Part shown: positions 19,988 to 35,408 of the stretch, one piece after another
How positions within the stretch are numbered: position 1 is the stretch's first letter
How the letters are laid out: each line of letters starts with the position of its first letter
Notes under the pieces: generated by a model
The model's input: the letters and a program-made list of their open reading frames with translations, nothing else
Told to the model about the DNA's origin: nothing
The model's database searches: none
Assembly (NCBI RefSeq): GCF_964194025.1
Contig: NC_134474.1
Coordinates: forward strand, 20,398,001 to 20,436,132
Reading direction: 5' to 3'
From: Convolutriloba macropyga
Lineage: Eukaryota
Length of the DNA stretch: 38,132 nt
Translations under genes and position numbers: made by a program

Positions 19988-21754
19988 CTGCTACTGAAAA
20001 GTGCATTTTACGGCTTTTGTTGTCTTAAGAAAAGTCTGTTTAGAGATAAAGGCATCATGAACCGAACAAACTGATAAATCTCAAAAACATGTTGTGGTGG
20101 TGTTGTCATTTGAGTGGCGTTAGTAGTCTAATGAGTGCAAAGTGGGATGAATTTGACAGAAGACCGTTTAAGCTATCTCAAATGGGGAAGTCTGTAGTGG
20201 TTTTGATCACCGTGAGTTAAACTGTTCAGTTTTCGGTTCGTTATTTTCAATTTTTGACTCATTGATCGTATTTGAGCTCAGTCACAGTTCTGATATGTCT
20301 CAATCATTTCTAATGTTACTTTCAATTTAACATTATATGTTATATGTGATGTTAAACAGCAAATTTGGCAATAAAATTTGCTTTGGTTTTCTGAGTCTAT
20401 TTGGTAACTTTTTTGTCATTTGTTTGTCTTCTTGATTACAAGATCAACAGTGAATTGCTTACAGATATTATTTTGTGTTTTTTGTGTTTTACTGTTTTTT
20501 TAGGGATATTTACGTCAAAAAGTTTCAGCAAACTCGTTTTTTATTGCCAGCTTGTCCATCCGGCCTCCGTGTATCATTTAGTGGTCCATTGATTTTTCTT
20601 TAGCCGTGAATATTTGTTTGATTGATTGATTTGAATTCAGATGGCAGATGATACAAATAATTATCTGTATTGGGTGGCAGTAGGTTTTCGTTTTTGCATT
20701 AGGGCGGATTTGGGACAATTTTGCCTGAGTTTTCGTGTTATGGTCGAGATGTCAAAAAGAGATTTTTTTTGATGCCTACATTATCATTTATTTTCAACAA
20801 ACAACAGATTTCATCTCAAATTTTATGGTTTTTTTACTTTATATTTGTTTGTTTATCGAGGTTTGGCTCATAAAACCAAAATGCTTAAAAACAAGTTGTC
20901 ATTGGAACTTTGTGAAAACTTTCAATTCTATCAATGTGTTAATTATTTAGCTTTAAATAAATCATACGTCTTTCTGTTCTCTTGTATTTTTTAATGCTTT
21001 TGAGTTTTTAAAGAGATACTTTTCGTTTGCAGAAAAGTGTGTTTTGATCTGGTTTGCGAGTCGTAACATGTTTTTTTCAGTGTTTGTTTTGACTTTCGAA
21101 GTTCACGCAAAGAAGAAAATTAAAGTTGGTGTGAATTAACTTACAAGGTGCCAACTTTTTTGGATGCATGTTACGTACGTTTTGAGCAAAATTGAGAATC
21201 AAGTATCGAAAATCACATGAAAGAACACGTACTAGTGAGTATATGCTTTTACAGCACCTTATGGCGCGTTGTATCTAGCACCCCAGTGCAAACGCCCTCA
21301 TTTTAGGGCACTTAGTCATTCGGGTGCCTACAATTTCCGTTGTAATATGTACAGAGAAGCAAGCGATAGCAGAATTTTTTATGGAATTAATTGTTCATGT
21401 TTAGATGTCTGATTAGATTGTCATATGCTTGAAGCTGCAATTGTGTTGACGTTTATTGAACGCTCAAGCGCAAGATCTATCGACATGATAATGATCATAC
21501 CTAGTCTATATACATAAGAAATCCATCTTTGTGATAAAAACAGGACTCAAGAGAAGAATACATATGCCGATAGGGTGATACTCGGCACCCAATCAGCACA
21601 TGCATTCTTCCTCGGTTTTCGGAGCCTACCCGACTAATCATGTTGTTCTATTTTTAGATGAGACAGTAAGCTTGTTCATTTTACTTTTTCAATTTTTAGC
21701 AAAACATATAGAGTCATAACTCCCCCCACTTTTTTCAGCTGCCGTATTGTTCCC

Positions 21755-22260
21755 TTTTGAGTGCGCGTTTGTGTTTGTTGTGTGTGTGTGTGTGTGTAAG
21801 AGTGTATGCGTGCGTGAGTATGTGTGTTTGCTTGTGTTGCGTATGAGTGTGTGCGTGTGTGAGTATGTGTGTTTGCTAAAATAACTTCCTGTTTGTTAGA
21901 GCAAGCACATTAATTTGTCATAGCTCTTAATATCAACACGCTTTATCCTCACGTACAAAAAACAGTATTTTTGCCTCAACAATTTTACTCATTCTAAACA
22001 GTTAATTCTATTCCTAACTTATTCAACCTAAGTATTCGAAAAAGGCTGCGTGTTTTCTAAAAAAACTTATCAAAAAAGTTATCAAAAAAGTAGTTACAAA
22101 AAATGTGTACCCCCCCCCCCCCTCCATCAACCCTACCCACCCGCCCACACACACACCCACACACCAACCCACACACACACACACCTAAACACACACACAA
22201 ACACACACACACACACACACAAGCGCGCACACACACATTCACGTGTTTATACGCAACAAC
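21755..22260. repeat. Inverted pair of simple-sequence tracts: (TG)-rich 21755-21877 and poly-C plus (CA)-rich 22109-22240
   Basis: gtgcgcgtttgtg (21761) pairs with cacaagcgcgcac (22218). gttgcgtat (~21836) pairs with atacgcaac (~22249). Confidence 0.75.
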
Positions 22261-22306
22261 TGACTGATACATGCACACTGTCAGCTTATCTTATATTTGC
22301 AGAAAA

Positions 22307-22780
22307 ATTTACATTTTGTAAAATAATTTTTACAGAATGTAAAAAATTTGTTTTTACAAATTGTAAAATTTTTTTACAAATTGTAAAAACTGCTTTTCTT
22401 CAATAGTATTTCAAATTCTAAAAACAATCAGTTTATCTTACAAAATGTAAAATTTTTACAAATTGTACAAAGATTTTACAAATTGTAAAAATTTTTTTTT
22501 ACAAATTGTAAAAATTTTTTACAAATTGTAAAAAATTATACTTCTCAAAAATTATTTTAAATTCTGAAAACAAACAGTAAATTTTACAAGTTTTTTTACA
22601 AATTGTAAAACTTTCATCGTTCCAAGGAATCTTTCAAAAACTAAAAAATGCGTAATTTTTACAATTTGTAAAAGAAATTTTACAAAATGTAAAAAACTCT
22701 TACTCTTTTTATCGTGATACCTGTCTGCCGGATCAACTCATTTTTACAAAATGTAAAAATTTTTTACAAATTGTAAAAAA
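22307..22780. repeat. Array 1 of the 17-bp near-palindrome TTTTACAAATTGTAAAA (~14-15 copies)
   Basis: Copies at about 22307, 22328, 22352, 22372, 22437, 22454, 22474, 22497, 22517, 22594, 22657, 22678, 22742 and 22762. Confidence 0.95.
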
Positions 22781-23174
22781 CTTGATTCACTATGAGAACA
22801 ACCTTTTTGTTTATTCGTTTTGTGTTTTCAAGTTTTAATTTGAGTTAGCGAAGAAAACTGATTGGTTAATTTTTTCTCTACTTTTCATTCATTCTTTGCT
22901 CGTTTTTCGTTTTTGATAAATTTTCCGATAGGACTCAATGCTTTAATTCTTTGTTTTTGTGGATCATTTTTCCAGATTTTTTCTGATTGGTTGGCGTATC
23001 GACTAACAAGTTGAGTTTAGCTTTGCCTCGCTCCAAGTAAATCATTTTTGCTCACACTGTTGCTAACCGTCATTTGGTTGCTCCTTCTCAACTAAATTTT
23101 TTGCTTTTGTCCTAGCGTTGTTGTTTATTCGAACAAGCTTTACTTATTTTTGTCTTGCTGCTCTAATTTTTTAG

Positions 23175-23612
23175 TTTTTACAAATTGTAAAAAATTCAGC
23201 TTCTACATTTTACAAATTGTAAAAATTTCAGCTTCTACATTTTACAAATTGTAAAAAATTCAGCTTCTACATTTTACAAATTGTAAAAAGTTCAGCTTCT
23301 GCTTTTTACAAATTGTAGAATTTCAACTACGTTTCTCCTACAAATTGTCAAACTTTTAGGCATCTCATTTTACAATTTGTAAAAACTCAACTTCTACTTT
23401 TTACAAATTGTAAAAAACTCAGCTTCTATTTTGTTTACAAATTGTAAAAAACTCAGCTTCTACTTTTTTTTATAAATTGTAAAATTTCAACTACGTTCCT
23501 CGTTCGGAATATTTGTAAGTTCTCTATATTGCTCCTGTTTACAGATTTCAAAAAAAAGGATTATTTCTAACAAGCGAGGGATGTCTTGATCCAATTTTAC
23601 AATTTGTAAAAT
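23175..23612. repeat. Array 2 of the same palindrome within a ~32-bp tandem unit (ttttacaaattgtaaaaaattcagcttctaca), ~11 copies
   Basis: Copies at about 23176, 23208, 23240, 23272, 23304, 23337, 23368, 23399, 23433, 23468 and 23595. Confidence 0.95.
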
Positions 23613-23954
23613 TCGGTCTTTCGCTGTTTTTGTTTTTAATCAGCAAAAAAAATAAATTAAAGTGATTTCTCATTTTTACTTAGAGCTCTTGTTTGCGTTT
23701 TTGAAAAAAACAGCCCTTCCACTTCATTTCAGATTAGCTTGCACTACTACATTTTGTTTCTCATTGGAAGAAAACAAAAAGTGGAGGAGTGTCATCCAAC
23801 TTATATCCAAAAACATCTTGGTCTTCATTCCGACAACATTGTTAGTAAGTAAAAATTTTGATTAAAACACAGTTTGAGCCATGAGCGGTTTTTTTATTTT
23901 TTTTAAAAGAGGAAGTGCTTGCCAACTTTAGGCAGTAGTGATTGCAACGTTTTG

Positions 23955-24823
23955 ATGACAAAATTAGAAAACAGTTTCTTTACGATCGATTTATCATCCA
24001 ATGCGTCGCTTGATTGCTATCCCGACAATACACTTGCATCCTTCCTTACATCACTCAGCGCACCTCAAGAACTTGACGATAATCAGTGCACCGTTTCCCT
24101 CTCTAGCATAACTTGCCCAAAAAAGTTCTCCAATATCGTTGAAGGTAAATTTGACTATATCAATGGAAAACTTGGCATCTACTTATCAAATTGTCGTGTT
24201 CCTAAAGGTTTGTACAATAGCGTGTTCGAATTGATTGATGGCATGGAAAAAGGAATCTATGCATCTAGAAGACAAGAATCTATTTTCGATAAAAGTAAAA
24301 AAGATTTTCAGTTTTCCCGAGAAAAGAACTTACGTCCAAAGGTGTGGTTGTTCTATGCGAAGGAAAGGATTGTGTTCATCTGACAAATGTTTCAGATGAT
24401 CTCAGATACATATTAGGATTGGAGAAATTTCTGTTGGAGACGCATAATAAACTTTCCTCTGGAAACAACCAGTTTGGAGATAAGCCAATTTTTCCAACGG
24501 ATATCAATTTGTATCATCTTGCTTTTGTTTATTGTGACATTATTGAGCCACAGTGTGTTGGCAATACCAAGGCACCCTTATTAAGATCTTTCCCCCTATC
24601 TGACGCAACTCAAATTGGTCCTGAAAAGGTGGAGTCCTCCATCGCAGGCCGTTTCGGATATCCAGCTGTATATCGTCACTCTTTTGACAAAACTCAATCT
24701 AAGCTTGTCAATAAAAAATATATTCACGATATTTTGATTGAAATTCGAAGTGATACTGGGAAACTGATACCTTTCACGGGAGTTGGTCGTACCTACGCAA
24801 CACTTTTCTTTGAAAAAAAATAG
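23955..24823 (+). pseudogene. Polinton/adintovirus minor capsid protein (penton), one frameshift near 24330-24345
   Basis: The N-terminal FFTIDLSSNASLDCYPDNTLASFLTSLSAPQEL...VSLSSITCP and C-terminal FVYCDIIEPQCVGNTKAPLLRSF...IHDILIEIRSDTGKLIPF...ATLFF match the patterns typical of Maverick minor capsid proteins. ORFs 23919-24383 and 24344-24823 overlap in different frames. Confidence 0.8.
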
Positions 24824-24854
24824 TTCATAGTTTCATTGCTTCCAATAATTTAGA

Positions 24855-25528
24855 ATGGGGCAGTGGATCAGAAAACGAAAAGAACAAAGTGACCTCGAGC
24901 GACAAAATGCACAGCCTCTCACCGGAGTAACGCCTGAAGAAGATCTTGAGGTATCAAAACTGGATAACGTGTGGGACCTGGATCCAAAAAACAACCGAAT
25001 TGTCAGAGTCGGGCTCAGAAAATCTGAAACGAGCGTATACGCCTACATTAAGGTCTTCAAACTAACAACTACGGTTGATTCAAAAATCAATACAATATCT
25101 GATAAATGGACCAGACAATCGAGTTTATCGCTCACAATGGACGAATTGATCAACGTCACAAAAATTATTGGTCGTGAATCCAGTGAAACCTTGACCGAGA
25201 CAGATTTGCAGATTTGGCACTGCGGGAGTCTTTTGAGTTGGCAATGACTTCATCCCTTGAAGCGATAAGATGCAATAGCGCTCCTGTTGAAGAGAAGAAA
25301 ATGAAGACGGAAGTTGTGGAAGTTGAACACAAATTAAATGGCGAAACGATTGGCGACGAAGGTGAAGTTTACACCCAGTCTCAAATTGGGGACGACTTTC
25401 CCGAGGACTTTGCTATCCCTGTTACAGAGGATGTATCATTTAGAAATGAACAAGATGCAGATATTTGGCGATCCCCAATCAAATTCAAAGCTAGTCAAAA
25501 AGTGAAAAGAGCAATTCTTCCAATATGA
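24855..25528 (+). pseudogene. PC4/Sub1-like ssDNA-binding domain protein with an acidic C-terminus, frameshifted by an 8-bp duplication
   Basis: WDLDPKNNRIVRVGLRKSETSVYAYIKVFK...SSLSLTMDELINV resembles the PC4 beta-sheet plus SLT.(E/D).. helix. Removing one copy of cagatttg (25201-25216) fuses the two track ORFs into a 221-aa frame (ETDLALRESFELAM). Confidence 0.55.
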
Positions 25529-25770
25529 AAAAATTTTAAATCGTCTGAATGATATCACACAGCTTTGGTTCAACTGATTGATTGGCTACCAGATTATTAT
25601 TCTCCTCTCCTCGATCAACCTATATACAATACTTTTGTATTCTCTTGCTACTATTTTTTAAATAAAAAATTTTTTTGCAGCTTTTACTCGTTATCTCATT
25701 CCAGCCATTGTTGGGCCTTTTTTCAAACCTTGAACAAACTTATAGTGCTGTGTTTTTCAGAAAAGTATCA

Positions 25771-26567
25771 ATGACTTCTGTCAGTTCTTCTGAAGCAGTG
25801 AGTTGCGAAGCAATTGACCTTAGTCGCGGCCATAATCTTGCTGTGAAGCGGGCACGTTTGACAAGGCAACCGGACGGTTTTCATGTTACACTGGAGGATG
25901 ATGAAGGCAATTCTACCCGGATTGAAATCGAAGAGTCTGTCGATGACAACTCCCAACAAGCGAGCTCTACCACTGAAGTTGTTGACTTGGACAATGAGGA
26001 CGTTAATGACGAGGTAATAAGAACCTTTTTGCTTCAAAAGCACCTCCTTTTTTCGAGGATGACATATACTGTACTGTATTGAGATGGGCAGTATCGAACC
26101 CTAAAAGATACAAAAAACAAATCACTTCGATAATTTGCTGAGCCTCAATAATTTTATTGTGTTTTGTTTAGGATAGTGGAAATGTTCAAATAACCCAGAT
26201 AGCGCAAATGTTTGGGATTGACGTAGTGAAGGAAGTTGTCAGTAATCAATCAAATCAAATATCGCTGGGCAATATGATACTCAAGGCTATCGAAGAGGGT
26301 CAATGTAATGATCTTTGTGCGAAGTTCAAATATGTTGCAACGCGAGAAGAATTGAATACGGCTTTTGACTTCATGATAGCTCATTTAAAGAGCCTACTTC
26401 TCCAAATAAACATAGGTTCCTCGGAGACAAATAACATCAAGCGTTATTGTTGGATGCTTGGTTTTTTGTACAAGGCAAAAAGCGATCTGTTCAATGACAA
26501 TGAAGACGAGAGGCGATCAAAAGTGTATAAAAAACTTTGTATGAAAATGCTGTCATGTGACTCTTGA
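25771..26567 (+). CDS. Two-exon hypothetical protein, 212 aa (exons 25771-26013 and 26172-26567); acidic N-half, helical C-half
   Basis: ATG at 25771 follows a tttttcag acceptor. Donor gag|gtaata at 26014 and acceptor ttgtttag| at 26171 are both phase 0, joining ...DVNDE to DSGNVQITQIAQMFGIDVVKE in frame with track ORF 26208-26567. Confidence 0.65.
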
Positions 26568-26927
26568 AGACTTGATTCTTCGCTGCCAAACCATAGCATA
26601 GCAAAACGTTCGACCTACCATAATTCATTTTTCTTGCGCGGATTTTGTTATGTCTAAAAATTTATTGTACACTTATTTCTTCTTTCATATGTGTATTATT
26701 ACATTTCATCTTATGCTAAGACAGTCAGTCATTTATTGACTATTTAGTTGTTTTACTACCAAATTTTTTATCTTATTTTGAATTTCAACGACCAACTGCA
26801 AGAAGCTAGTTTATTCAAAACCACCTTGTCTTCAATAATATTATTAGGAATGATTGTTAAACTCATTAGAAAAAAAAAGTTCTCACAAGATCACCAATTC
26901 AGCCACTTCTGTTTTTCAGACCACAAA

Positions 26928-27344
26928 ATGCAGAGTGGAAATCAACCGTGTGCAATGTGCGACAACCCGTTATGCTCAAAAGAAGTTGAAGTTTACGAAA
27001 AAGTTGAGATAGCTGTTCGTCAACTGGAGCTGTCACATCAGTCTATTACCATTTCGATAGATAACGGATCCTGTACATGGATAGAAGCTCTGAGAAACCT
27101 GGAAAGCACAAAGGCTTTTGGAAATGTGCTCTACCATGTGGGAATCATCAGACGCTTCGCTTCCTTATTCCAATGGAATCGACTGAACAAGACTCTCGAA
27201 CAAATTTATCTGAGGCTCGCGGATTGTTACAGAAAAATTGATATGCACGACGACGCAAAAGCACTCAGCTTAAGAGCATTCAATTTATCGCAAGAATATA
27301 GACAGCGTAATGAGGCACAGAAACCAGTGACGATCCCAGAGTGA
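26928..27344 (+). CDS. Hypothetical alpha-helical (TPR-like) protein, 138 aa, N-terminal CxxC-x4-C
   Basis: Intact frame, with the ATG 8 nt after gtttttcag. It aligns by eye with 27641-28006. AATAAA follows at 27504. Confidence 0.65.
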   Translation: MQSGNQPCAMCDNPLCSKEVEVYEKVEIAVRQLELSHQSITISIDNGSCTWIEALRNLESTKAFGNVLYHVGIIRRFASLFQWNRLNKTLEQIYLRLADCYRKIDMHDDAKALSLRAFNLSQEYRQRNEAQKPVTIPE

Positions 27345-27640
27345 TTGTTCCTAAACTATATTATAACGTTTTTTCGAACGTTTATAATTTTTGTAAGCTG
27401 CCTATCTTTCACCTTCAAATATTATGTATAGTTCAGAGTGTTTTTACTGCTATTAAAGTACTTTAATTTATATCCGGGTTTAACCTACAGCTTTTTTGAG
27501 AGGAATAAAAACGTGTCAGCTATTGAACAGACTCTTTTTCAAAAGATTTGAATGATATCTTTCCAATCAACCGTTAATCAAACTTGATCAAACTGATTTT
27601 GTTGTTGCGGTTTCTAACGTATTTCCTGCGTTTCAGTGAA

Positions 27641-28006
27641 ATGAATGTACACGCCAGTGCAGATGAAAGGTTTGTCTATCTTGACAAATGTATTGCGGCC
27701 TGGAACGATTCACTAATGGAAGCAAGTGAAGGTATTCGATTAAAAGAGATGAACGATGTGAAGGCGGTGCAGCTTTTAAAAGGCCTCAGAGACGAAGGTT
27801 TACGACTTCATTCGCTGCCAAATATCAAAGAGTTTTTGACTGGTTTTCAGTGGTTCAGCATAACATATCTGATGGAACGAACCTATCAAAAACTTGGAGA
27901 AATTCTTCTACGTCTTGGTGGTTCCTCTAAATCTGAAGCCAAAGAATTTCTTTATATGGCAGCGGTTTTTGCCTGCAAATATGTTCAGAAACCAGCCAAC
28001 AATTGA
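27641..28006 (+). CDS. Hypothetical alpha-helical (TPR-like) protein, 121 aa, paralog of 26928-27344
   Basis: The ATG follows a branch-point-like ttctaac (27612) and tttcag (ending 27636). It shares F...FQW......E..Y..L...(D/E)AK.....A......Y with the upstream ORF. Confidence 0.65.
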   Translation: MNVHASADERFVYLDKCIAAWNDSLMEASEGIRLKEMNDVKAVQLLKGLRDEGLRLHSLPNIKEFLTGFQWFSITYLMERTYQKLGEILLRLGGSSKSEAKEFLYMAAVFACKYVQKPANN

Positions 28007-28359
28007 TTAAATTGTGCCTTTAACTGTTGCTTTCAAATAATAAGTAAAACTTGCTCCAACCTTTTACCACCCATGCTGCTGTATTTAAAGCCGCTAATCA
28101 TTTTCCAAACAAAACATTTTCTTTTGTCATTTCTGATGCGCTCACTTTTTGTACTCGAGTTTTCTAATTATTTTATGATGACACAATACTTTATTCTTGT
28201 CTCAACTTAAAAAAGAACACGAATTCTGTTTAACATTTTTTTTGCTGTTCGAAATTGATGATTGTTCTCTCTCTATAAACCACACAAACAGACCGTCGTC
28301 TAAAACTAATAATTGAAGAATCAGGTTCTAAATTTGATACCTGTTTTCAGACACTGATC

Positions 28360-31300
28360 ATGTCAACTGAAAACACACACACTAATGGCAGCAGCAGCAA
28401 CGCTACTGTAGCAGAAGCACCAGACCTGAGCTCAGCTAGTGGTTTTGATCCCTCAACCTTTTATCAAATAACACGAAGACCGAAAAGAAGGAGCTCCTTA
28501 CAAGCGGTCAGTCGCGACTTCGAGGTCAGTTTCCGAGGTATTGAAACCCAAATTGACAAAGTCAAAGACGTTTTTAATCACTTGATAAATTTCCTCATTG
28601 AAGAATTAAACCGTGAAAACGAAAATACTAACCACCGTATACGCTTGGTTCTAAATGCTCCGAGTCTGAGTTACCCAGTTCATATACCTTTTCAGGAAGC
28701 GGCTGATTTTAACATCGATTTTGTGTTAAATGAAATTGAGCGTGTTTAAAATTCAAACGAAGGGTTTGACATCAGTAGCGATATGAAAGTGAATGTGTTA
28801 TCGGTGTCTTTACCTGCAATGGGTGGCTATAAAATAGGCGGAATTCATAATTGAACTATCCCCGACGTACTAACTTTCATATCACAGAAGCGATCAGTTA
28901 TATCTATTCATACTGATGAATAAAATAATTGCTTATTAGCAGCACTAGGCGTAGGCATGGCTCTGGCAGATAACGGATTACAGCAGGCAAAGAAACAATT
29001 TTCAAAAAATTACAAACAGGAGTTGGAAAAAAAGCAGTTGATATTCAAACTGAAACGGTTTTCAAATTGGGATATTGATTTCGGAAACAGCGCGAATAAA
29101 AAATGGACTCTTGACGATCTCTCTATGTTGGCCAAAACCGCAACTCTAAAACCATACAACATAACTGTGTACGATGCAAAGTTCATGGGTGTTTATTTGA
29201 AAAGTTTCAACGACGGCCAGGAGAAGCACATTGATTTGTTGTACAACTCAAACGCAGAGCACGTTGATGTAATCACTTCAATGAAGGGCCTGTTCAGCGT
29301 TCGGTTTTACTGCTATGCTTGTCATAAAGGATTTTCTACTGTTAAACACTTGTGTGCAGCTAGTTCGTATGCCAAAGTGTCGTATGCCAAAGTGCAGAAA
29401 CAGGGCTTCTACTGCGTTCAATACTGATTTTTTTGGACAACAGACGTGTTCTACGTATGTTCTAGGTATTTTGTAGAGTCAGCTGTGCTTGGATGCGCAT
29501 ATAACACAACGTATTTGCTCTTATTTCTACAAATGTCCTGGGTGCAATCTTACTGTTTCCCGGCACTCGGCGTCCACTCATCAATGCAGCAAAAAACGAT
29601 GCGTTACTTGTTCTCAATTTTACAATTTCTCACAAGGAAAGAAACACGAGTGTTTTGTACAGAGCCCCAAAAAACGGGCACGTGCAGCCCTGGAGACTGA
29701 TGTTGGTGAAAGAACGACTGTTGATGGTGATAACGGAAATTTTGCCAGCAAGAAATCAAAGAGGAGTAACCTCTTCAATTCAGTGTCCAGTTCTGACGCT
29801 TCTTTCTCGCGACAGGAAGAAGAAGCAGAGCAAGCAGTGCCAGACGAACAAACTTGGGCCTTTGACTTTGAAACTGATCAGAGCTGCGAACAAAAGAATG
29901 TACACAAACCGGTTCTTCTGATTGCAAAATCATTTTCCGGAGTTGAAAAATCTTTTGTTGGTTACAATTCAGTTAACGATTTTTGTCTTTGGTTGTTCGA
30001 CAACAAAGAGCGTTTCAGAAAGTGCGAATGGTTCATTGCTCATTTTGGAAGTGGGTACGACTTTCTGCCAATCTTGGAGTGGCTATATCAGAAACAAAGT
30101 TTCATTCCAAAAATTGTTCTGAGAGGCAATAAAGTTGTGTCACTCAAAGTGGGAAATAAACGGTTTATTGATTCATACCTGTTCAAACCTATCCCTCTTC
30201 GGAAATTTCGAAGACATTTACCATTGAAGAGACGGAGAAGGGATATTTCCCCCACTTTTTTACTTCATCTGCAGCTTTTGAAGGTAAAACACCTTTTCAT
30301 ACAATTTCTTCGTGCCCCAATGGACAGGAATGCGGCTTAGTGAACATAGTTTCCGCTGATTGCCCTCACTGCATTAGTAGGAGAGTTGACAGACTTTCAA
30401 AACTCCAAGGATTAAATTGCACAGCACGGACGCTAACAAGAGAATGCGATGAGAATTCAAGAGAATGCCAAGAACCAGATTTTGCCTTCCTACCCGGACA
30501 GTTCCCGCCGCGGTGTCTGTTTGGCGTTAATTCCCTACAAGATACTGAGTATTTTAATCACTTCATTCAATGGCATCAACAACAAGAGGTAATTTACAAG
30601 GAAAACTTGCTAAATTACGAATTTCAGCTAGAGTTAACAAAATACTGCCAGTCAGACGTTGAATTATTGAAACAAGGTGTTACCACTTTTTGACGACTGA
30701 TTAAGAAAACATGCAACAACATTGACCCCTTTCAAATAGCATGTACTGCTGCATCAGCCTGTAACTATATATACCGACAACTGTTCATGCCTCCAGCCTC
30801 TATAGCGATTTTACCATCAAACGGATATCGGTCGATGGAGAAAACTTCGTTCCCGGCTAATCAATGGCTCTGCTGGATCGAACGTACCGAGAGGGAAAAA
30901 AACAGGAATTTTGAAATCAAGTTCTACAAATCAAACTCGTTGGGTGGTTCTGCTTCAAAAAACGATAAAGAAGTTCGAGAGCAAAAAATTGGCCCGTGCC
31001 GTGTAGATGGCCTCATGTTAAAAAAAGAGCGCTCCGATGAACAAGATTGGATCAGCGATTCTAAAGTTGTGTACAGAGCAAATATTTATGAGTTTTTTGG
31101 TTGTTATTATCACGGCTGCTACAAATGTTATCCAAATCGCAAAGAGTTTAATAAGAAAAAGGGAATGACTATCGAAGAGCTTCATTTCACCACTTTTCAA
31201 GAAAGATTTCAGTTTCTCCAATCTCAAATTGAAAACAAAGTTCGCCACAAAACGACGGATGGTTTAAATTATGTTATTGAGTCATGTGAAAATATCTGGG

Positions 31301-32986
31301 AATGTCAATTTAACGATTTAGTTAAAAATCATTCTTTTGAGGAAGCGGCAAAAATTGCTCCTTTTTCTAACGGCCACTATCATAACTAAAAGTTGAAACA
31401 ACTGGTGAGCAGTAGCGAGTTTTTTTCACCACTCAAAGCCAGAGACGCTTTTGTTGGCGGTCGGACAGAAAGTTTCTGCACACGTTGGCACAAAAAGAAT
31501 TGTAACCAAAAGTTTCGGTATGTTGATATTTGTTCCTTGTACCCGTATGTTAACGCGTCGTGCCCTTATCCTGTTGGTCATCCGGATTTTGTGCTTGTGG
31601 CTCCAGTTTTTGATGAAAATGTGTCGGAAAATCCGTTAAGTCTTCAGCGACGAAAAGTGCTAGCATCACGCTCGAATGATTGCATTTATTGTCAGCCCTT
31701 TTCGGAAGTTGAACAAAAAATTTTGGATGAAGAATATTTTGGATTAATCAAATGTCTTGTTCTGCCGCCGAGGAATCTCTGGATACCAATTATCCCTTTC
31801 AAGTATAATGCGAAACTTTTTTCCCGCTCTGCAGGAAGTGCGTGGAAACCACTAGTTCTAACAAATCCCAGCAGGCAAATATCCCAATCGATGGGTCAAA
31901 TTGCTCGCACAGTGATTACCTTGATAGGGCTTTCTGGGGCACATTTGTGACTGTTGAACTACGATTAGGGATTCGTTGGGGCTACAGAGTTATTGATGTG
32001 TCGGAAATTTGGTCATAGAGCACTGCAAGACGCTCATCAAACTTATTTCGGGAGTACATAAACACTTTTTTGAAGATAAAAACAGAAGCGAGTGGGTGGC
32101 CAGTAGAGTGTAACTGTGATCAGACTGAAACTTGTAGCCACAGAAGAGACTTTCTGCGCGACTTTGAACCTAAAGAGGGGGTTAAACTGAATGAGGAGAA
32201 TATGGAGCGGAACGAAGGCTTACGTTTCATCTCAAAAATTCTTCTCAATTCTTTTTGGTGTTATCTTGGTATGCGTGAGAACCTGCCAAAGACGAGGTAT
32301 GTCAACAATTACCCTGATGTCGTAAAATACTTCACGTCTAATTTTTCTCGCGTTTTTGACGCAACTCTAGTGGAAGAAGATTTGATGCTTCTTCAGTACC
32401 AAATGATTGACGATGCGGCTGATATTCCGAGAAAATCTAATGCTGTTTTGGCTGCCTTTACAACCGCCCACGCCCGAAGCATACTATATCAGCATATTTC
32501 GAAAGTGAAAAATCCTCAAAACGTTTTATACTGTGATACAGACAGTATAATGTACATTGATGAGCAAGTTAGTGGTTTGGATGCTCATAGGGATATACCT
32601 ATCGGTTCCTATCTCGGTGATATGCCGGATGAGCTTCCAAAAACGGTCACGGTTGATAATTTTTTTTTGGCGGGCCAAACTTTTACTGTATCAATGGACG
32701 CAATAATGAAACAGCTGCTGAGTACTATGTTTTTAAAGTCAAAGATCTCACTATTAACAGAGCAGTGGAGAAAACGTTCGATATCGAAGCGTTCAAAAAA
32801 CTGGTTCTTCAGGAGGTGCACGAGCTGCGCTCCCCATTTAGCTCAATGCGTCGTTGCGTTAAAACTGATAAAATTCAAACACAGTTTTGCAAAAAAATGA
32901 CTAAGATAACTTGTACTAAACGCTGCTTCGATACTGATACTGGCTTATCTGTCCCCTATGGTTTCTTATCCAACTTCAAACATTAA
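28360..32986 (+). pseudogene. polB: Protein-primed family B DNA polymerase (pPolB), Polinton/alpha-adintovirus type, ~1500 aa ancestral
   Basis: N-terminal IERV*NSNEGF...KRSVISI..NNCLLAAL..EHVDVI; Cys-rich zinc region; ExoI FDFET, ExoII AHFGSGYD, FIDS, KGYFPHF, ExoIII YCQSDV; insert VDG...YEFFGCYYHGC...IWECQF; Pol A YVDICSLYP; FPLCRKC; KTEASGWP; Pol B SKILLNSFW; Pol C YCDTDS; C-terminal KR...SVPYGF. Stops at 28747, 28852, 28921, 30691, 31387 and 32016. Frameshifts near 29370-29490, 30208, 31820 and 32670. Confidence 0.96.
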
Positions 32987-33109
32987 TGTAGCCAGTTTGT
33001 ATTTGGTAACAGTAATTTAATTTTTGTTTCTTTTTTCAATTTGAAGTATTAATTTCTTTTCACACTTTTTTTCTCCAATTGTTTATTTTTTGAACAGAAA
33101 TTTCAAACC

Positions 33110-34123
33110 ATGCACAAACTTTGTCTTGTTTTTAGATTATTGAACGTTATGTCTCAAACCAAGTCAGACAGCACTCAACATTGGAGCTCAGAGACGATAA
33201 CAGACTGGTCAAGTAACAGCTATCTAGAAAAACTGACTTGTCACTACATTGCGGTCGACTCCTGTCAAATGAAGAATAAGGCCTGTTGCATGAGCGTTGA
33301 TGGGTTTTATTGTTGCGGGCCAAGGGGCCAACTAAGAGCTGACTTAGATCTAATTAATGACACTATTGTCAGCTCTATTGTGCGCGCAAACTATATTTCC
33401 TTGTTCCTGTTCATCCTTTCGATAAATTTGCTGTCTGTCGTTGTGTGTTGTTTTATTGATGCTAGCCATTTCCGATGGTCCTGAAAACAGGAAATTCAGT
33501 CAGCCTTTAAAAGGAAATCGAAAAACCGGCCGGCGACTGCGGTTCTAGGGAAAGGGATTGCGGTGGACGGGCAAACACGCTTGCAAGAAGACAAAAATTC
33601 ATCTGACTTGATTTGCAGGGGTTGCTCTGCTACAACGCAAGGCGAAATGTCCGCGGCTTCATGGTGGCAACACGGTTAAAATTCTGTCCAAGCTCTCCAG
33701 ACTACTGCGCAAGTTCACTCCGTTCCTCCCGATCTCTTGGTTTCCAATGCAAGTAGGGAAAACATCACTGCAGTTTTACCACTGATTGGACCAAAAAAGT
33801 ATAGGCAGTATCTGGTTTTGTATGAAAGAAAACACTCTTTACCAACAAGCTCTCGAAACATTTATTATACACAAATTTCCGTTCAGAGAAACAATTCTTT
33901 CACGACAATTTCAAAAGACAAGCCAGCAAATGTGAGTCATTTCAAAGATAATAACCCCTCTACTTCTCACTTTGGAAGCCTGGTCGAAGACGTGCCCGCC
34001 CGAAAAAAGAGGTTGCCATCTAAATCAAGTGTAGATGATAACACTTCTACAACAACAACAACAACTTCGACTTTTTCTCGTAAGCAATTGTATAGTTATG
34101 GAGACCTTGAAACGCTAGTTTGA
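33110..34123 (+). pseudogene. Type I single-pass membrane protein (six-Cys ectodomain, TM helix, S/T-rich tail, C-terminal ETLV) with two premature stops
   Basis: Track ORFs 33110-33484 and 33737-34123 share a frame, and the only stops in between are 33482 (tga) and 33677 (taa). The ectodomain pattern is C-x7-C-x6-CC-x7-CC and the TM segment is YISLFLFILSINLLSVVVCC. Confidence 0.65.
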
Positions 34124-34520
34124 TTGATGGATTGATCATATCTTGCAAAAGAAGAGGAGCACTTGATGATCATTTTTAAAGCAGAGACTTATGGCTGTCT
34201 GTCTGTCTCTCTATGTTTGTATATCATATCTCGAAGTTTTGTATTGTATTTCAGCAAACATTTGTGATGAATTAGTCTTTATTGATGACAGTACTTGTTG
34301 CTTTTTACTGTACAAAAGATTGAAATGAATGAAAGGAGAACTGCCAATTTGAGGCATTTTTTTGTAACTTTTAGATTTTTGATAGTTGTAGGTAGAACTA
34401 ATTGTTTAATTACTAACTACCGCACTTATATGTTTTTCTTTTAGTTTTCATTTGTTGTTTCATTTGTGTACCTATTATTAATTGTGATGCAGGGGGGCAC
34501 TGATTCTTCAGAGTTTTGGT

Positions 34521-35213
34521 ATGGAGTTTCGTCAAGGTGCCACCAGGATTTATGCGCATTTTGCGTTCTGCCCCACCAATGATTGTGAGAAAGGAGCAAT
34601 AGAGCAATGTGATCACATTTTGGAGGAGCTCTGTGTAATGCTACAGCGTGAGCACATTGAGTTTGTGATTGGTGCCTATGTCTTTAACTGCCTAAAACAA
34701 TGCGGTTTTCCAAATGCAGTGTTTGTGACACGAAAAACTTCACAGAATCAACATCGTGTTCCAAATTCAGCTCAAAGGCGCAATCTTATGTCGTCCACTA
34801 ATAAGGAAGCACCGGAACTTTGCGAGAACCATCTTCATTTGTTGATATACTGTAGAGATGACTCCCAATAATCTACAAGTAATGCCCAACCAGCGACCAC
34901 AACAAACTGGAGACTTGAAGAAGCCGTAGCACGCGTAAGGCACTATTTCAGTTTTCAACTACCGAGGTCAGAGATGAGATCAGGCTTCAAGTTCTTTCAA
35001 ATACAAGTGTGGTGTCCCTTCTCTGTGTATGCTGCTTTCGCTGGACAAATAAAAAATAAACAGTCTTATGCTCTTGCGCGCGGGGAACAATTCGACTTGT
35101 TCAGTTCTACATATGACGCAAATGCTGACTTGAACAAATATTTTCCAAAGAGAGCACCAATTCTCCGTTCCAAGTGCCTGTTTGAACTGCAGATAAAATT
35201 CTTGGTAAAATAG
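34521..35213 (+). pseudogene. HUH-endonuclease-like protein, ~230 aa, one premature stop at 34869
   Basis: Track ORFs 34521-34871 and 34974-35213 are in frame and the sequence between them is open. HLHLLIY lies at 34830-34850, with a downstream helix PFSVYAAFAGQIK. The ORF itself is well supported; the family assignment is inferred. Confidence 0.5.
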
Positions 35214-35408
35214 TGTTGTGCATATGGACCGCAATTTAGATTATGACATCTTTGGTTTTTCTTAATACAGTTTAATACATAAATGTAAGATTGAAGGCAG
35301 GCAAGTAGTATGTATCCTTGACTCAACTTTCACGCTCTCTACGCAACATTATCATGGTTGGTAGCCTTTCTCATAATACAAGGTTTGGTCATTTCAGAGA
35401 GAGATTCA

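What the first reader, a model, noticed from the sequence alone, without database searches (positions are those of the whole stretch)
34521..35213. Stand-alone HUH-endonuclease-like gene inside a pPolB/penton Polinton-like virus
Seen: one frame broken by a single stop reads strand(IYAHFAF)-helix(IEQCDHILEELCVMLQRE)-strand(FVIGAYVF)-loop-strand(HLHLLIY)-helix(LEEAVARVRHYF)-strand(FKFFQIQV)-helix(PFSVYAAFAGQIK). Known: this is the order of elements in HUH nucleases (rolling-circle Reps, parvovirus NS1, IS200 TnpA, Helitron Rep), which have an H-hydrophobic-H metal site and a catalytic Tyr in the later helix. Canonical Polintons use an rve integrase (some relatives a tyrosine recombinase) and protein priming, not HUH chemistry. 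Inference: this may be an undescribed Polinton-like lineage that uses a helicase-less HUH enzyme for integration, excision or terminal resolution. No rve integrase appears in the 16 kb shown.
Basis: partly seen in the sequence, partly recalled or inferred. Interest (0 to 1): 0.85.

Follow-up and report, generated by a model that had tools for sequence, protein, structure and literature searches.

The report
Rolling-circle-type protein hitchhiking in Maverick virus
A virus-like jumping element with its own ordinary integrase also carries a conserved extra gene that is predicted to fold like the DNA-nicking proteins of rolling-circle viruses but has no fixed cutting residue, so it likely grips the element's hairpin ends rather than inserting it.

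Summary
The frame is real. It is broken by one stop in this copy but uninterrupted in 14 of 14 other close copies. The integration idea is refuted. The element runs past the window, is 27.2 kb, has ~107-bp TIRs, a perfect 6-bp TSD and an rve integrase gene downstream: a canonical Maverick/Polinton. The HUH call is probably right but not proven. A 45-sequence AlphaFold model (pLDDT 77) is a ferredoxin-like fold whose longest structural alignments are to AAV Rep, B19 NS1 and TnpA-REP (Z 5.6-6.7, below significance; generic folds reach 7.7). Across 9 lineages at 27-45% identity, HUH (8/9; one HUQ), a third His on strand 2 and four Cys are kept, but the motif III helix has no invariant Tyr. A second Maverick family in the genome carries a homolog after pPolB with no Tyr in that helix. 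Both families have hairpin-forming TIRs; 15 other Polinton loci lack the gene. Best reading: a captured HUH-fold, metal-binding end-recognition protein assisting protein-primed replication (0.45). An active nickase is the rival (0.25). I found no report of such a gene in pPolB Polintons.

The parts
34521..35213 (+). HUH-like gene (230 codons); this copy is broken by one stop and has lost four conserved residues
   Evidence: uninterrupted in 14 of 14 other close copies
34869..34871 (+). premature TAA, found at this place only in this copy among the 15 examined
34551..34574 (+). strand 1 / motif I region (family pattern H-F-h-F-Y-P; His and Tyr 8 of 8 lineages that cover it)
34659..34679 (+). 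strand 2 ending in the family's invariant His (residue 54, 9 of 9 lineages), predicted third metal ligand; altered in this copy
34689..34781 (+). insertion with four invariant Cys (58, 62, 69, 88), inferred zinc site; low-confidence part of the model
34830..34838 (+). HUH motif on strand 3 (H105-L-H107; 8 of 9 lineages, one representative HUQ)
35010..35054 (+). W-C-P plus helix 167-179, the place of HUH motif III; no invariant Tyr
21546..21551 (+). left 6-bp target-site duplication CTCAAG, repeated exactly after the right end
21552..21658 (+). left terminal inverted repeat (~107-109 bp, starts AG); first ~60 nt fold into a hairpin (z -4.5 on +, -7.0 on -)
21552..38132 (+). Maverick/Polinton provirus, left 16.6 kb of 27,236 bp; right end at G000:C7:20446787. 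ATPase, rve integrase, major capsid and protease genes lie beyond the window
23907..24823 (+). penton/minor capsid-like gene, split over two frames here (label from recalled motif and context; no Pfam hit)
28360..32986 (+). protein-primed DNA polymerase B, broken by several stops and frameshifts in this copy
   Evidence: (PF03175 E 4.6e-9)
35409..36447 (+). downstream neighbour gene of unknown function; its N-terminus resembles the gene that follows the HUH-like gene in family 2 (24 aa, 50%, E 2e-5)

Best explanation
The gene is a conserved accessory gene of a canonical, integrase-using Maverick/Polinton lineage, and its product is predicted to be a captured HUH (Rep-type) domain that likely binds metal and the element's hairpin-forming ends without cutting through a tyrosine. 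Shown: gene, element, integrase, TSDs, residue conservation, TIR self-complementarity. Predicted: HUH fold, His54/His105/His107 metal site, Cys4 zinc insertion. Inferred: it acts as an origin/end-recognition factor that holds or opens the terminal hairpin so that pPolB and its terminal protein can start protein-primed synthesis on the excised element, much as Rep-derived domains serve as origin-binding modules elsewhere. The rve integrase does the insertion.
For: Integrase PF00665 over cut-off in both families (E 2.8e-9; 1.5e-11). 6-bp TSDs in 6/6 and 2/2 complete copies; HUH transposases generally make no TSD (PMC10288648, passage). Model pLDDT 77, pTM 0.79, HUH on strand 3 and His54 ending strand 2, as in RepB His39/His55/His57 (PMC5030251) and B19 NS1, where the third ligand is Glu or His (PMC9440244). 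The four longest alignments among 50 rows of the wide structure search are all HUH proteins (123-136 residues); AAV2 Rep aligns over model 7-208 vs chain 1-198 (Z 6.7, rmsd 4.9, 137 residues). The best BFVD row is a Rep (E 0.024) and several parvoviral NS rows follow. No invariant Tyr in helix 167-179: position 171 is Y4/W3/F2, 168 is F5/Y4, 173 never Y; the multi-copy family 2 has none. Gene sits right after or one gene after pPolB in both families. Both families' TIRs fold into hairpins (z -4.5 to -7.3, 0 of 200 shuffles) with different stems and a shared core. Precedent for captured Reps kept without nicking: avipoxvirus apvReps and HHV-6 U94 (PMC10193959; PMC4499131).
Against: No structural score is significant: Foldseek has no hit at E<=0.001, and unrelated ferredoxin-like folds score as high or higher (Z 7.7, rmsd 2.8, 98 residues). 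Profile comparison with pMV158-family Reps gave only probability 1.9%. No Pfam, PHROG, NCBIfam or PDB sequence hit. Keeping the full His triad argues for chemistry, not just binding; the avipox and U94 precedents lost the HUH motif. 7 of 9 lineages have a Tyr at either 168 or 171, and Tyr18 is invariant (8/8). Terminal hairpins are not exclusive: 2 of 13 control Polintons with TIRs (one family) fold one (z -3.4, -4.4) with no detectable homolog, and 15 of 15 control Polintons lack the gene. Gene context is known only for the two families in this genome. DNA binding was not tested.
Confidence: 0.45

Rival explanations
1. It is an active HUH nickase with a wandering or unusual nucleophile (a Tyr at 168 or 171 of the motif III helix, or the invariant Tyr18), cutting the terminal hairpin to release a single-stranded copy from the chromosome or to resolve ends, while the integrase still inserts.
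For: Complete His triad in nearly all lineages; Tyr at 168 or 171 (same helix face by spacing) in 7 of 9 lineages, including the window's family; Tyr18 8/8. Hairpin TIRs. The standing model of Polinton propagation needs a single-stranded intermediate (PMC4196379, passage).
Against: The catalytic Tyr is highly conserved in HUH enzymes and its loss abolishes cleavage (PMC9440244). Family 2 has no Tyr in the helix yet has recent TSD-flanked copies. F/Y/W interchange looks like stacking. No YxxK Lys. A Tyr at the place of Tyr18 is invariant in pMV158-family Reps too, where Tyr99 is the nucleophile.
Confidence: 0.25
2. The HUH metal site is used for hydrolysis: a metal-dependent nuclease that trims hairpins, flaps or host DNA without a covalent intermediate.
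For: Metal ligands kept without a fixed Tyr. HHV-6 U94, a captured Rep, has Mg-dependent 3'-5' exonuclease and no detectable endonuclease activity (PMC4499131, passages).
Against: U94's activity was tied to a different residue (E27), not a His triad. pPolB already has a proofreading domain (established knowledge). No direct data.
Confidence: 0.12
3. It is not HUH-derived: an unrelated ferredoxin-like protein whose His and Cys bind zinc for structure or for another activity (for example a host-interaction or transcription factor).
For: Top Z scores go to generic ferredoxin-like domains; all HUH scores are below the tool's stated noise level of Z 8; no sequence-profile support. Family 2 also carries a TBP-like gene nearby, so a transcription module is conceivable.
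Against: Generic folds align only ~90-100 residues and stop near residue 166; HUH proteins align 123-137 residues, out to 208-214. Three conserved His fall exactly on the strands where HUH ligands sit. The weak profile alignment with RepB still puts strands 1 and 2 in register.
Confidence: 0.16
4. One reading: a Polinton-like lineage that integrates with the HUH enzyme instead of an rve integrase.
For: No integrase inside the window.
Against: rve integrase in both families; 6-bp TSDs and AG...CT ends on all 8 complete copies examined.
Confidence: 0.02

Closest known systems
Maverick/Polinton (class Polintoviricetes; adintoviruses)
   Same: TIRs, 6-bp TSD, pPolB, rve integrase, A32-like ATPase, adenain-like protease (Pfam hit in family 2), capsid-like genes (definition in PMC4196379 and 10.64898/2026.06.19.733378, passages).
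   Different: Longer (22-27 kb), with a conserved HUH-like gene, hairpin TIRs and, in family 2, a TBP-like gene. The other Polinton lineage sampled in this genome (~16 kb, AGTA ends) lacks the gene.
Parvoviral Rep/NS1 nuclease (origin-binding) domain: AAV2/AAV5 Rep, B19 NS1
   Same: Best whole-domain structural alignment (Z 5.9-6.7, rmsd 4.4-5.0, 123-137 residues); HUH on strand 3; third ligand on strand 2; hairpin-ended replicon.
   Different: No SF3 helicase, no invariant motif III Tyr, third ligand His, ~50-residue Cys4 insertion; about 10% identity.
pMV158-family plasmid RepB (Rep_2)
   Same: Strand 1 ends in F-x-h-Y-P, strand 2 ends in a His ligand, then HUH.
   Different: RepB has an invariant catalytic Tyr99 and an Asp42 ligand; profile match not significant (probability 1.9%).
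HUH genes of mriyaviruses and Zora/VC218 viruses
   Same: Stand-alone HUH gene in a mid-size eukaryotic dsDNA virus; some of these groups also encode RVE integrase (PMC11253617; 10.64898/2026.06.19.733378 section 6).
   Different: Mriyaviruses lack a DNA polymerase, are circular or terminally redundant and keep all catalytic motifs; they are Nucleocytoviricota-related. Here the gene sits beside pPolB in a linear TIR element and lacks motif III.
Captured Reps: avipoxvirus apvRep, HHV-6 U94
   Same: Rep domain captured by a dsDNA virus, kept under selection, catalytic Tyr mostly missing (PMC10193959; PMC4499131).
   Different: Those lost the HUH motif; this family keeps the whole His triad.
Replitrons and IS200/IS605 TnpA (helicase-less HUH transposases)
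   Same: Helicase-less HUH domain, hairpin ends; weak structural hits to TnpA.
   Different: They have an invariant Tyr and mobilise the element themselves, generally without TSD (PMC10288648); here the integrase does.

Membership tests
Maverick/Polinton | terminal inverted repeats of 100-1000 bp | tested here: met
   ~107-123 bp in family 1; 77-78 bp in family 2, slightly short
Maverick/Polinton | 6-bp target-site duplication | tested here: met
   6 of 6 complete family-1 copies (5 perfect, 1 with one mismatch; a 7th copy had no right end in the fetched range), 2 of 2 family-2 copies
Maverick/Polinton | protein-primed PolB | tested here: met
   PF03175
Maverick/Polinton | rve integrase | tested here: met
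   PF00665 over cut-off in copies of both families; frameshifted in the window's own element
Maverick/Polinton | A32-like ATPase and cysteine protease | tested here: met
   PF04665 E 1.4e-8; PF00770 E 5.7e-6 in family 2, 41% to the family-1 ORF
Maverick/Polinton | double jelly-roll major and single jelly-roll minor capsid genes | tested here: inconclusive
   453/447-aa and ~290-aa conserved ORFs in both families but no Pfam hit; labels from recall and context; not folded
HUH endonuclease superfamily (Rep class) | ferredoxin-like core with HUH topology | tested here: inconclusive
   fold compatible; longest alignments are to HUH proteins, but Z 5.5-6.7 and no Foldseek hit at E<=0.001
HUH endonuclease superfamily (Rep class) | motif II HUH/HUQ on strand 3 | tested here: met
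   H105 9/9, H107 8/9 (one Q) lineages; strand 105-111 in the model
HUH endonuclease superfamily (Rep class) | third metal ligand (Glu/His/Asp) at the end of strand 2 | tested here: met
HUH endonuclease superfamily (Rep class) | motif III invariant catalytic Tyr (YxxK) in the helix after the last core strand | tested here: not met
   no column of helix 167-179 has Tyr in more than 4 of 9 lineages; family 2 has none
HUH endonuclease superfamily (Rep class) | metal-dependent ssDNA nicking with covalent Tyr-DNA adduct | not testable with these tools
   needs biochemistry
HUH transposons (Replitron, Helitron, IS200/IS605) | HUH enzyme mobilises the element, no TSD, no DDE integrase | tested here: not met
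   TSDs and rve integrase present
Mriyaviricetes | no DNA polymerase, no integrase, intact HUH motifs | tested here: not met
   pPolB and rve present; motif III absent (definition)

The most novel reading that the evidence does not exclude
A Maverick lineage has acquired a zinc-finger HUH nickase that cuts its own hairpin-shaped terminal repeats with a non-canonical nucleophile, releasing the single-stranded intermediate that pPolB then copies. This would be the first element to join rolling-hairpin chemistry, protein priming and a retroviral-type integrase, and would supply an enzyme for the unexplained excision step of Polintons.
Probability: 0.2. Interest if true: 0.85.

Novelty: new variant of a known kind. 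Interest (0 to 1): 0.55.

Why it matters
How integrated Polintons get out of the chromosome and start replication has never been shown. A lineage that keeps a Rep-like, metal-binding protein next to pPolB, together with hairpin ends, gives a small soluble protein and a 60-nt substrate with which to test end recognition or nicking directly. The protein family itself (about 20 representatives, no Pfam/PHROG/NCBIfam/PDB match) appears undescribed and would be an unusual HUH derivative: full His triad, Cys4 insertion, no fixed Tyr. If it only binds, it parallels the origin-binding domains that other DNA viruses derived from Reps; if it cuts, the chemistry is new.

Tried and rejected
Single-sequence AlphaFold: pLDDT 32, not used. 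Sequence searches with no hit: Pfam, PHROGs, NCBIfam, PDB sequences, phage genomes. ESM Atlas: only low-score leads or none, no structure search possible. No related locus in IMG/VR or JGI metagenomes, so gene context outside this genome is unknown. Search for longer, fused homologs found none among 3195 candidates; the tool calls this weak evidence. Profile comparison with pMV158-family Reps (probability 1.9%) and HRPV-1 ORF1 (0.2%) not significant. Sequencing runs: no RNA holder listed; laid contigs show presence only; nothing on expression. Earlier scan notes: nothing found. Idea that terminal hairpins mark HUH-bearing Polintons: only partly holds, since 2 of 13 control elements have a hairpin without the gene. 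The control set was 15 loci that I picked for long open pPolB frames from 77 listed matches (3891 candidates, 91 scored), mostly one lineage, so it is not a random sample. The YFPK segment was considered as motif III and rejected: Tyr in 3 of 13 sequences. No complex prediction was run. Dropped before the 9-lineage count: fragments and near-duplicates among the 45 aligned sequences (21 non-redundant; 17 printed; P0017 lacks the N-terminus, hence counts of 8).

Full report
OBSERVATION. The frame 34521-35213 exists as described, with one TAA at 34869-34871. The host genome (1.18 Gb, chromosome-scale contigs, probably an animal; not determined) holds 22 full-length copies at 92-100% identity, the window's included, plus 3 partial matches (a lower bound). 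All 14 other copies fetched have an uninterrupted frame. In 16 gap-free copies, private variants are near neutral (pN/pS 0.82) and shared variants mostly silent (5 syn, 2 nonsyn; 0.11), as expected for a selected gene whose integrated copies decay (small numbers). The window copy has also lost four conserved residues. Residue numbers below are those of P0001 (a natural copy, L005), in which the start Met is residue 2.

THE ELEMENT. With the neighbouring 20 kb it is 27,236 bp, from window 21552 to G000:C7:20446787, bounded by ~107-109-bp inverted repeats and a perfect duplication CTCAAG. Of 7 family-1 elements examined, 6 had both ends and all 6 had a 6-bp TSD (5 perfect, 1 with one mismatch). 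Beyond the window lie an A32-like ATPase (PF04665, E 1.4e-8), an rve integrase (PF00665, E 2.8e-9 in the C8 copy; frameshifted in the window's element), a 453-aa capsid-like ORF and a protease-like ORF. A protein search found a second family with a 36% homolog: 22-kb elements, 77-78-bp TIRs, perfect 6-bp TSDs in 2 of 2 complete copies, rve integrase (E 1.5e-11), pPolB, protease. Core genes of the two families are 41-56% identical. The homolog lies directly after pPolB in family 2 and one gene after it in family 1.

THE FAMILY. Twenty representatives were found among 1.84 billion proteins and a few more by profile; the ten clusters looked up are unnamed, from ENA/Logan. None matched Pfam, PHROGs, NCBIfam or PDB sequences. 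Nine lineages at 27-45% mutual identity were compared. Invariant: His54, Cys58, Cys62, Cys69, Cys88, Asn104, His105, Trp131, Cys166-Pro167, Ser169, Pro210-Lys211 (9/9); His14 and Tyr18 (8/8). His107 is 8/9 (one Gln; HUQ is a known variant, PMC10288648). Position 168 is F in 5, Y in 4. Position 173 is never Tyr. Family 2 has no Tyr in the helix at all. Against my reading: 7 of 9 lineages have a Tyr at 168 or 171.

STRUCTURE. A 45-sequence AlphaFold model has mean pLDDT 77, pTM 0.79: strands 12-18, 48-54, 105-111, 157-162, helices 24-44, 131-150, 167-179; the Cys-rich insertion is low confidence. Foldseek finds nothing at E<=0.001; IS200 TnpA is rank 7 in PDB (E 0.36), and in BFVD the best row is a Rep (E 0.024) with several parvoviral NS proteins further down. 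In the wide VIA search the best Z (7.7, rmsd 2.8, 98 residues) is a generic ferredoxin-like domain, but the four longest alignments of the 50 rows are AAV5 Rep (136 residues, Z 6.1, rmsd 5.0), B19 NS1 (129 and 123; Z 5.5, 5.9) and TnpA-REP (127, Z 5.6). AAV2 Rep aligns model 7-208 to chain 1-198 (Z 6.7, rmsd 4.9, 137 residues). The tool warns that Z under 8 may mean only a common arrangement. The case therefore rests on fold plus motif position: HUH on strand 3 and a conserved His closing strand 2, where RepB has His39 with His55/His57 (PMC5030251) and B19 NS1 has Glu72 with His81/His83 (PMC9440244). Strand 1 ends in F-h-F-Y-P like pMV158-family Reps, whose Tyr at that place is invariant but not the nucleophile; the profile match itself is not significant (1.9%). 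I put HUH ancestry at about 0.8.

ENDS. The first 60-70 nt of both families' TIRs fold into hairpins (z -4.5 to -7.3; 0 of 200 shuffles), with different stems around a shared core. Control: 15 other pPolB loci, chosen by me from 77 listed, have no homolog (best E 0.17); 13 had TIR and TSD, and 2 of these (one family) also fold a terminal hairpin (z -3.4, -4.4). The hairpin is thus suggestive, not specific, and the gene is dispensable for Polintons in general.

MECHANISM. Most likely (0.45): a captured Rep-type domain that kept its metal site and gained a zinc insertion but lost the fixed Tyr, and now recognises the hairpin ends for protein-primed initiation; the integrase inserts. Shown: gene, selection, element, integrase, TSD, conservation pattern, hairpin potential. 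Predicted: fold and metal site. Inferred: end binding and its role. Rivals: active nickase with a variable Tyr or Tyr18 (0.25), hydrolytic nuclease (0.12), unrelated ferredoxin-like protein (0.16), HUH integration (0.02).

KNOWN SYSTEMS. The element is a member of Maverick/Polinton (capsid genes not confirmed by profile). The protein looks like a Rep nuclease domain but fails the motif III test, so I do not file it as an HUH endonuclease. Stand-alone HUH genes are described in mriyaviruses (no polymerase, motifs intact; PMC11253617) and in Zora/VC218 viruses, some with RVE (10.64898/2026.06.19.733378). Captured, mostly inactivated Reps are described in avipoxviruses and HHV-6 (PMC10193959, PMC4499131). 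I found no report of an HUH-like gene in pPolB Mavericks in these searches: Polinton+HUH+endonuclease+integrase, Maverick+Polinton+HUH (43), adintovirus+Rep+HUH+parvovirus+NS1 (111, 15 of 146 listed), pPolB+HUH (134); 'HUH' occurs 0 times in two Polinton surveys (10.1101/2024.03.18.585575; 10.1101/2023.08.22.554363). Subscription papers are not in the library.

WHAT I SAW OF EACH PAPER. Passages only: PMC11071296, PMC11296320, PMC11253617, 10.1101/2024.03.18.585575 (65), 10.1101/2023.08.22.554363 (71), PMC10193959, PMC4499131, PMC10288648, PMC5030251, PMC9440244, PMC4196379. Passages plus section 6 in full: 10.64898/2026.06.19.733378 (14, 135). PMC9943647: term search returned nothing. No supplements were read; the annotation files of the adintovirus surveys could already label this gene. 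Recalled, from no call: the penton, major capsid, PC4-like and VSR-like labels; HRPV-1 ORF1 being a Rep; origin-binding domains of polyoma- and papillomaviruses being Rep-derived.

VERDICT. Real gene, canonical integrating Maverick, probably HUH-derived, not the integrase, no fixed catalytic Tyr. New variant of a known kind; interest 0.55.

Noticed in passing
L072:1574-2203 (family-2 Maverick, G000:C5; also C3 and C15 copies): A TATA-binding-protein-like gene (PF00352, E 1e-6, over cut-off) two genes after the HUH-like gene; not seen in family 1. 'TBP' occurs 0 times in two Polinton papers checked.
   Followed up: partly
window 21552-21621; L074:9152-9226: TIR hairpins of the two families share a core with a CCAAT-like word (GCCGATAGG...ACTCG.CA.CCAATCAG) although their stems differ.
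   Followed up: partly
window 30694-31389 (inside pPolB): Inserted segment with a G-x-x-x-V-D-G ... E-F-x-G-C-Y-Y-H-G-C pattern that I recall as a VSR-like nuclease; such inserts are reported in mollusc and marine nematode pPolB2. Not tested.
   Followed up: no
window 24849-25528: Gene after the penton, conserved in both families (37%), resembles PC4-type ssDNA-binding proteins by recalled pattern; no Pfam hit.
   Followed up: no
window 26748-28006; L033:7437-8579: Two short tandem helical ORFs with weak TPR-like scores (E 0.02-0.1) upstream of pPolB; a similar short ORF sits at that place in family 2.
   Followed up: no
L016 (first ~1.7 kb past the window end): A long tetranucleotide microsatellite inside the element, ~1.6 kb in this copy versus ~0.3 kb in others; it accounts for this copy's extra length.
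   Followed up: no
G000, genome-wide: Very high Polinton load: 3891 pPolB candidates. The sampled ~16-kb lineage has AGTA ends; one family (L126-L133) has its own terminal hairpin without an HUH-like gene.
   Followed up: partly
L082 (G000:C10:9095000-9104000): Two identical-scoring family-2 HUH-like genes 5.6 kb apart on one strand, suggesting a tandem duplication.
   Followed up: no
window 1-21000: Host flank made of degenerate tandem repeats (~2.2 kb, ~185 bp and ~1.14 kb periods) with no long ORF.
   Followed up: no
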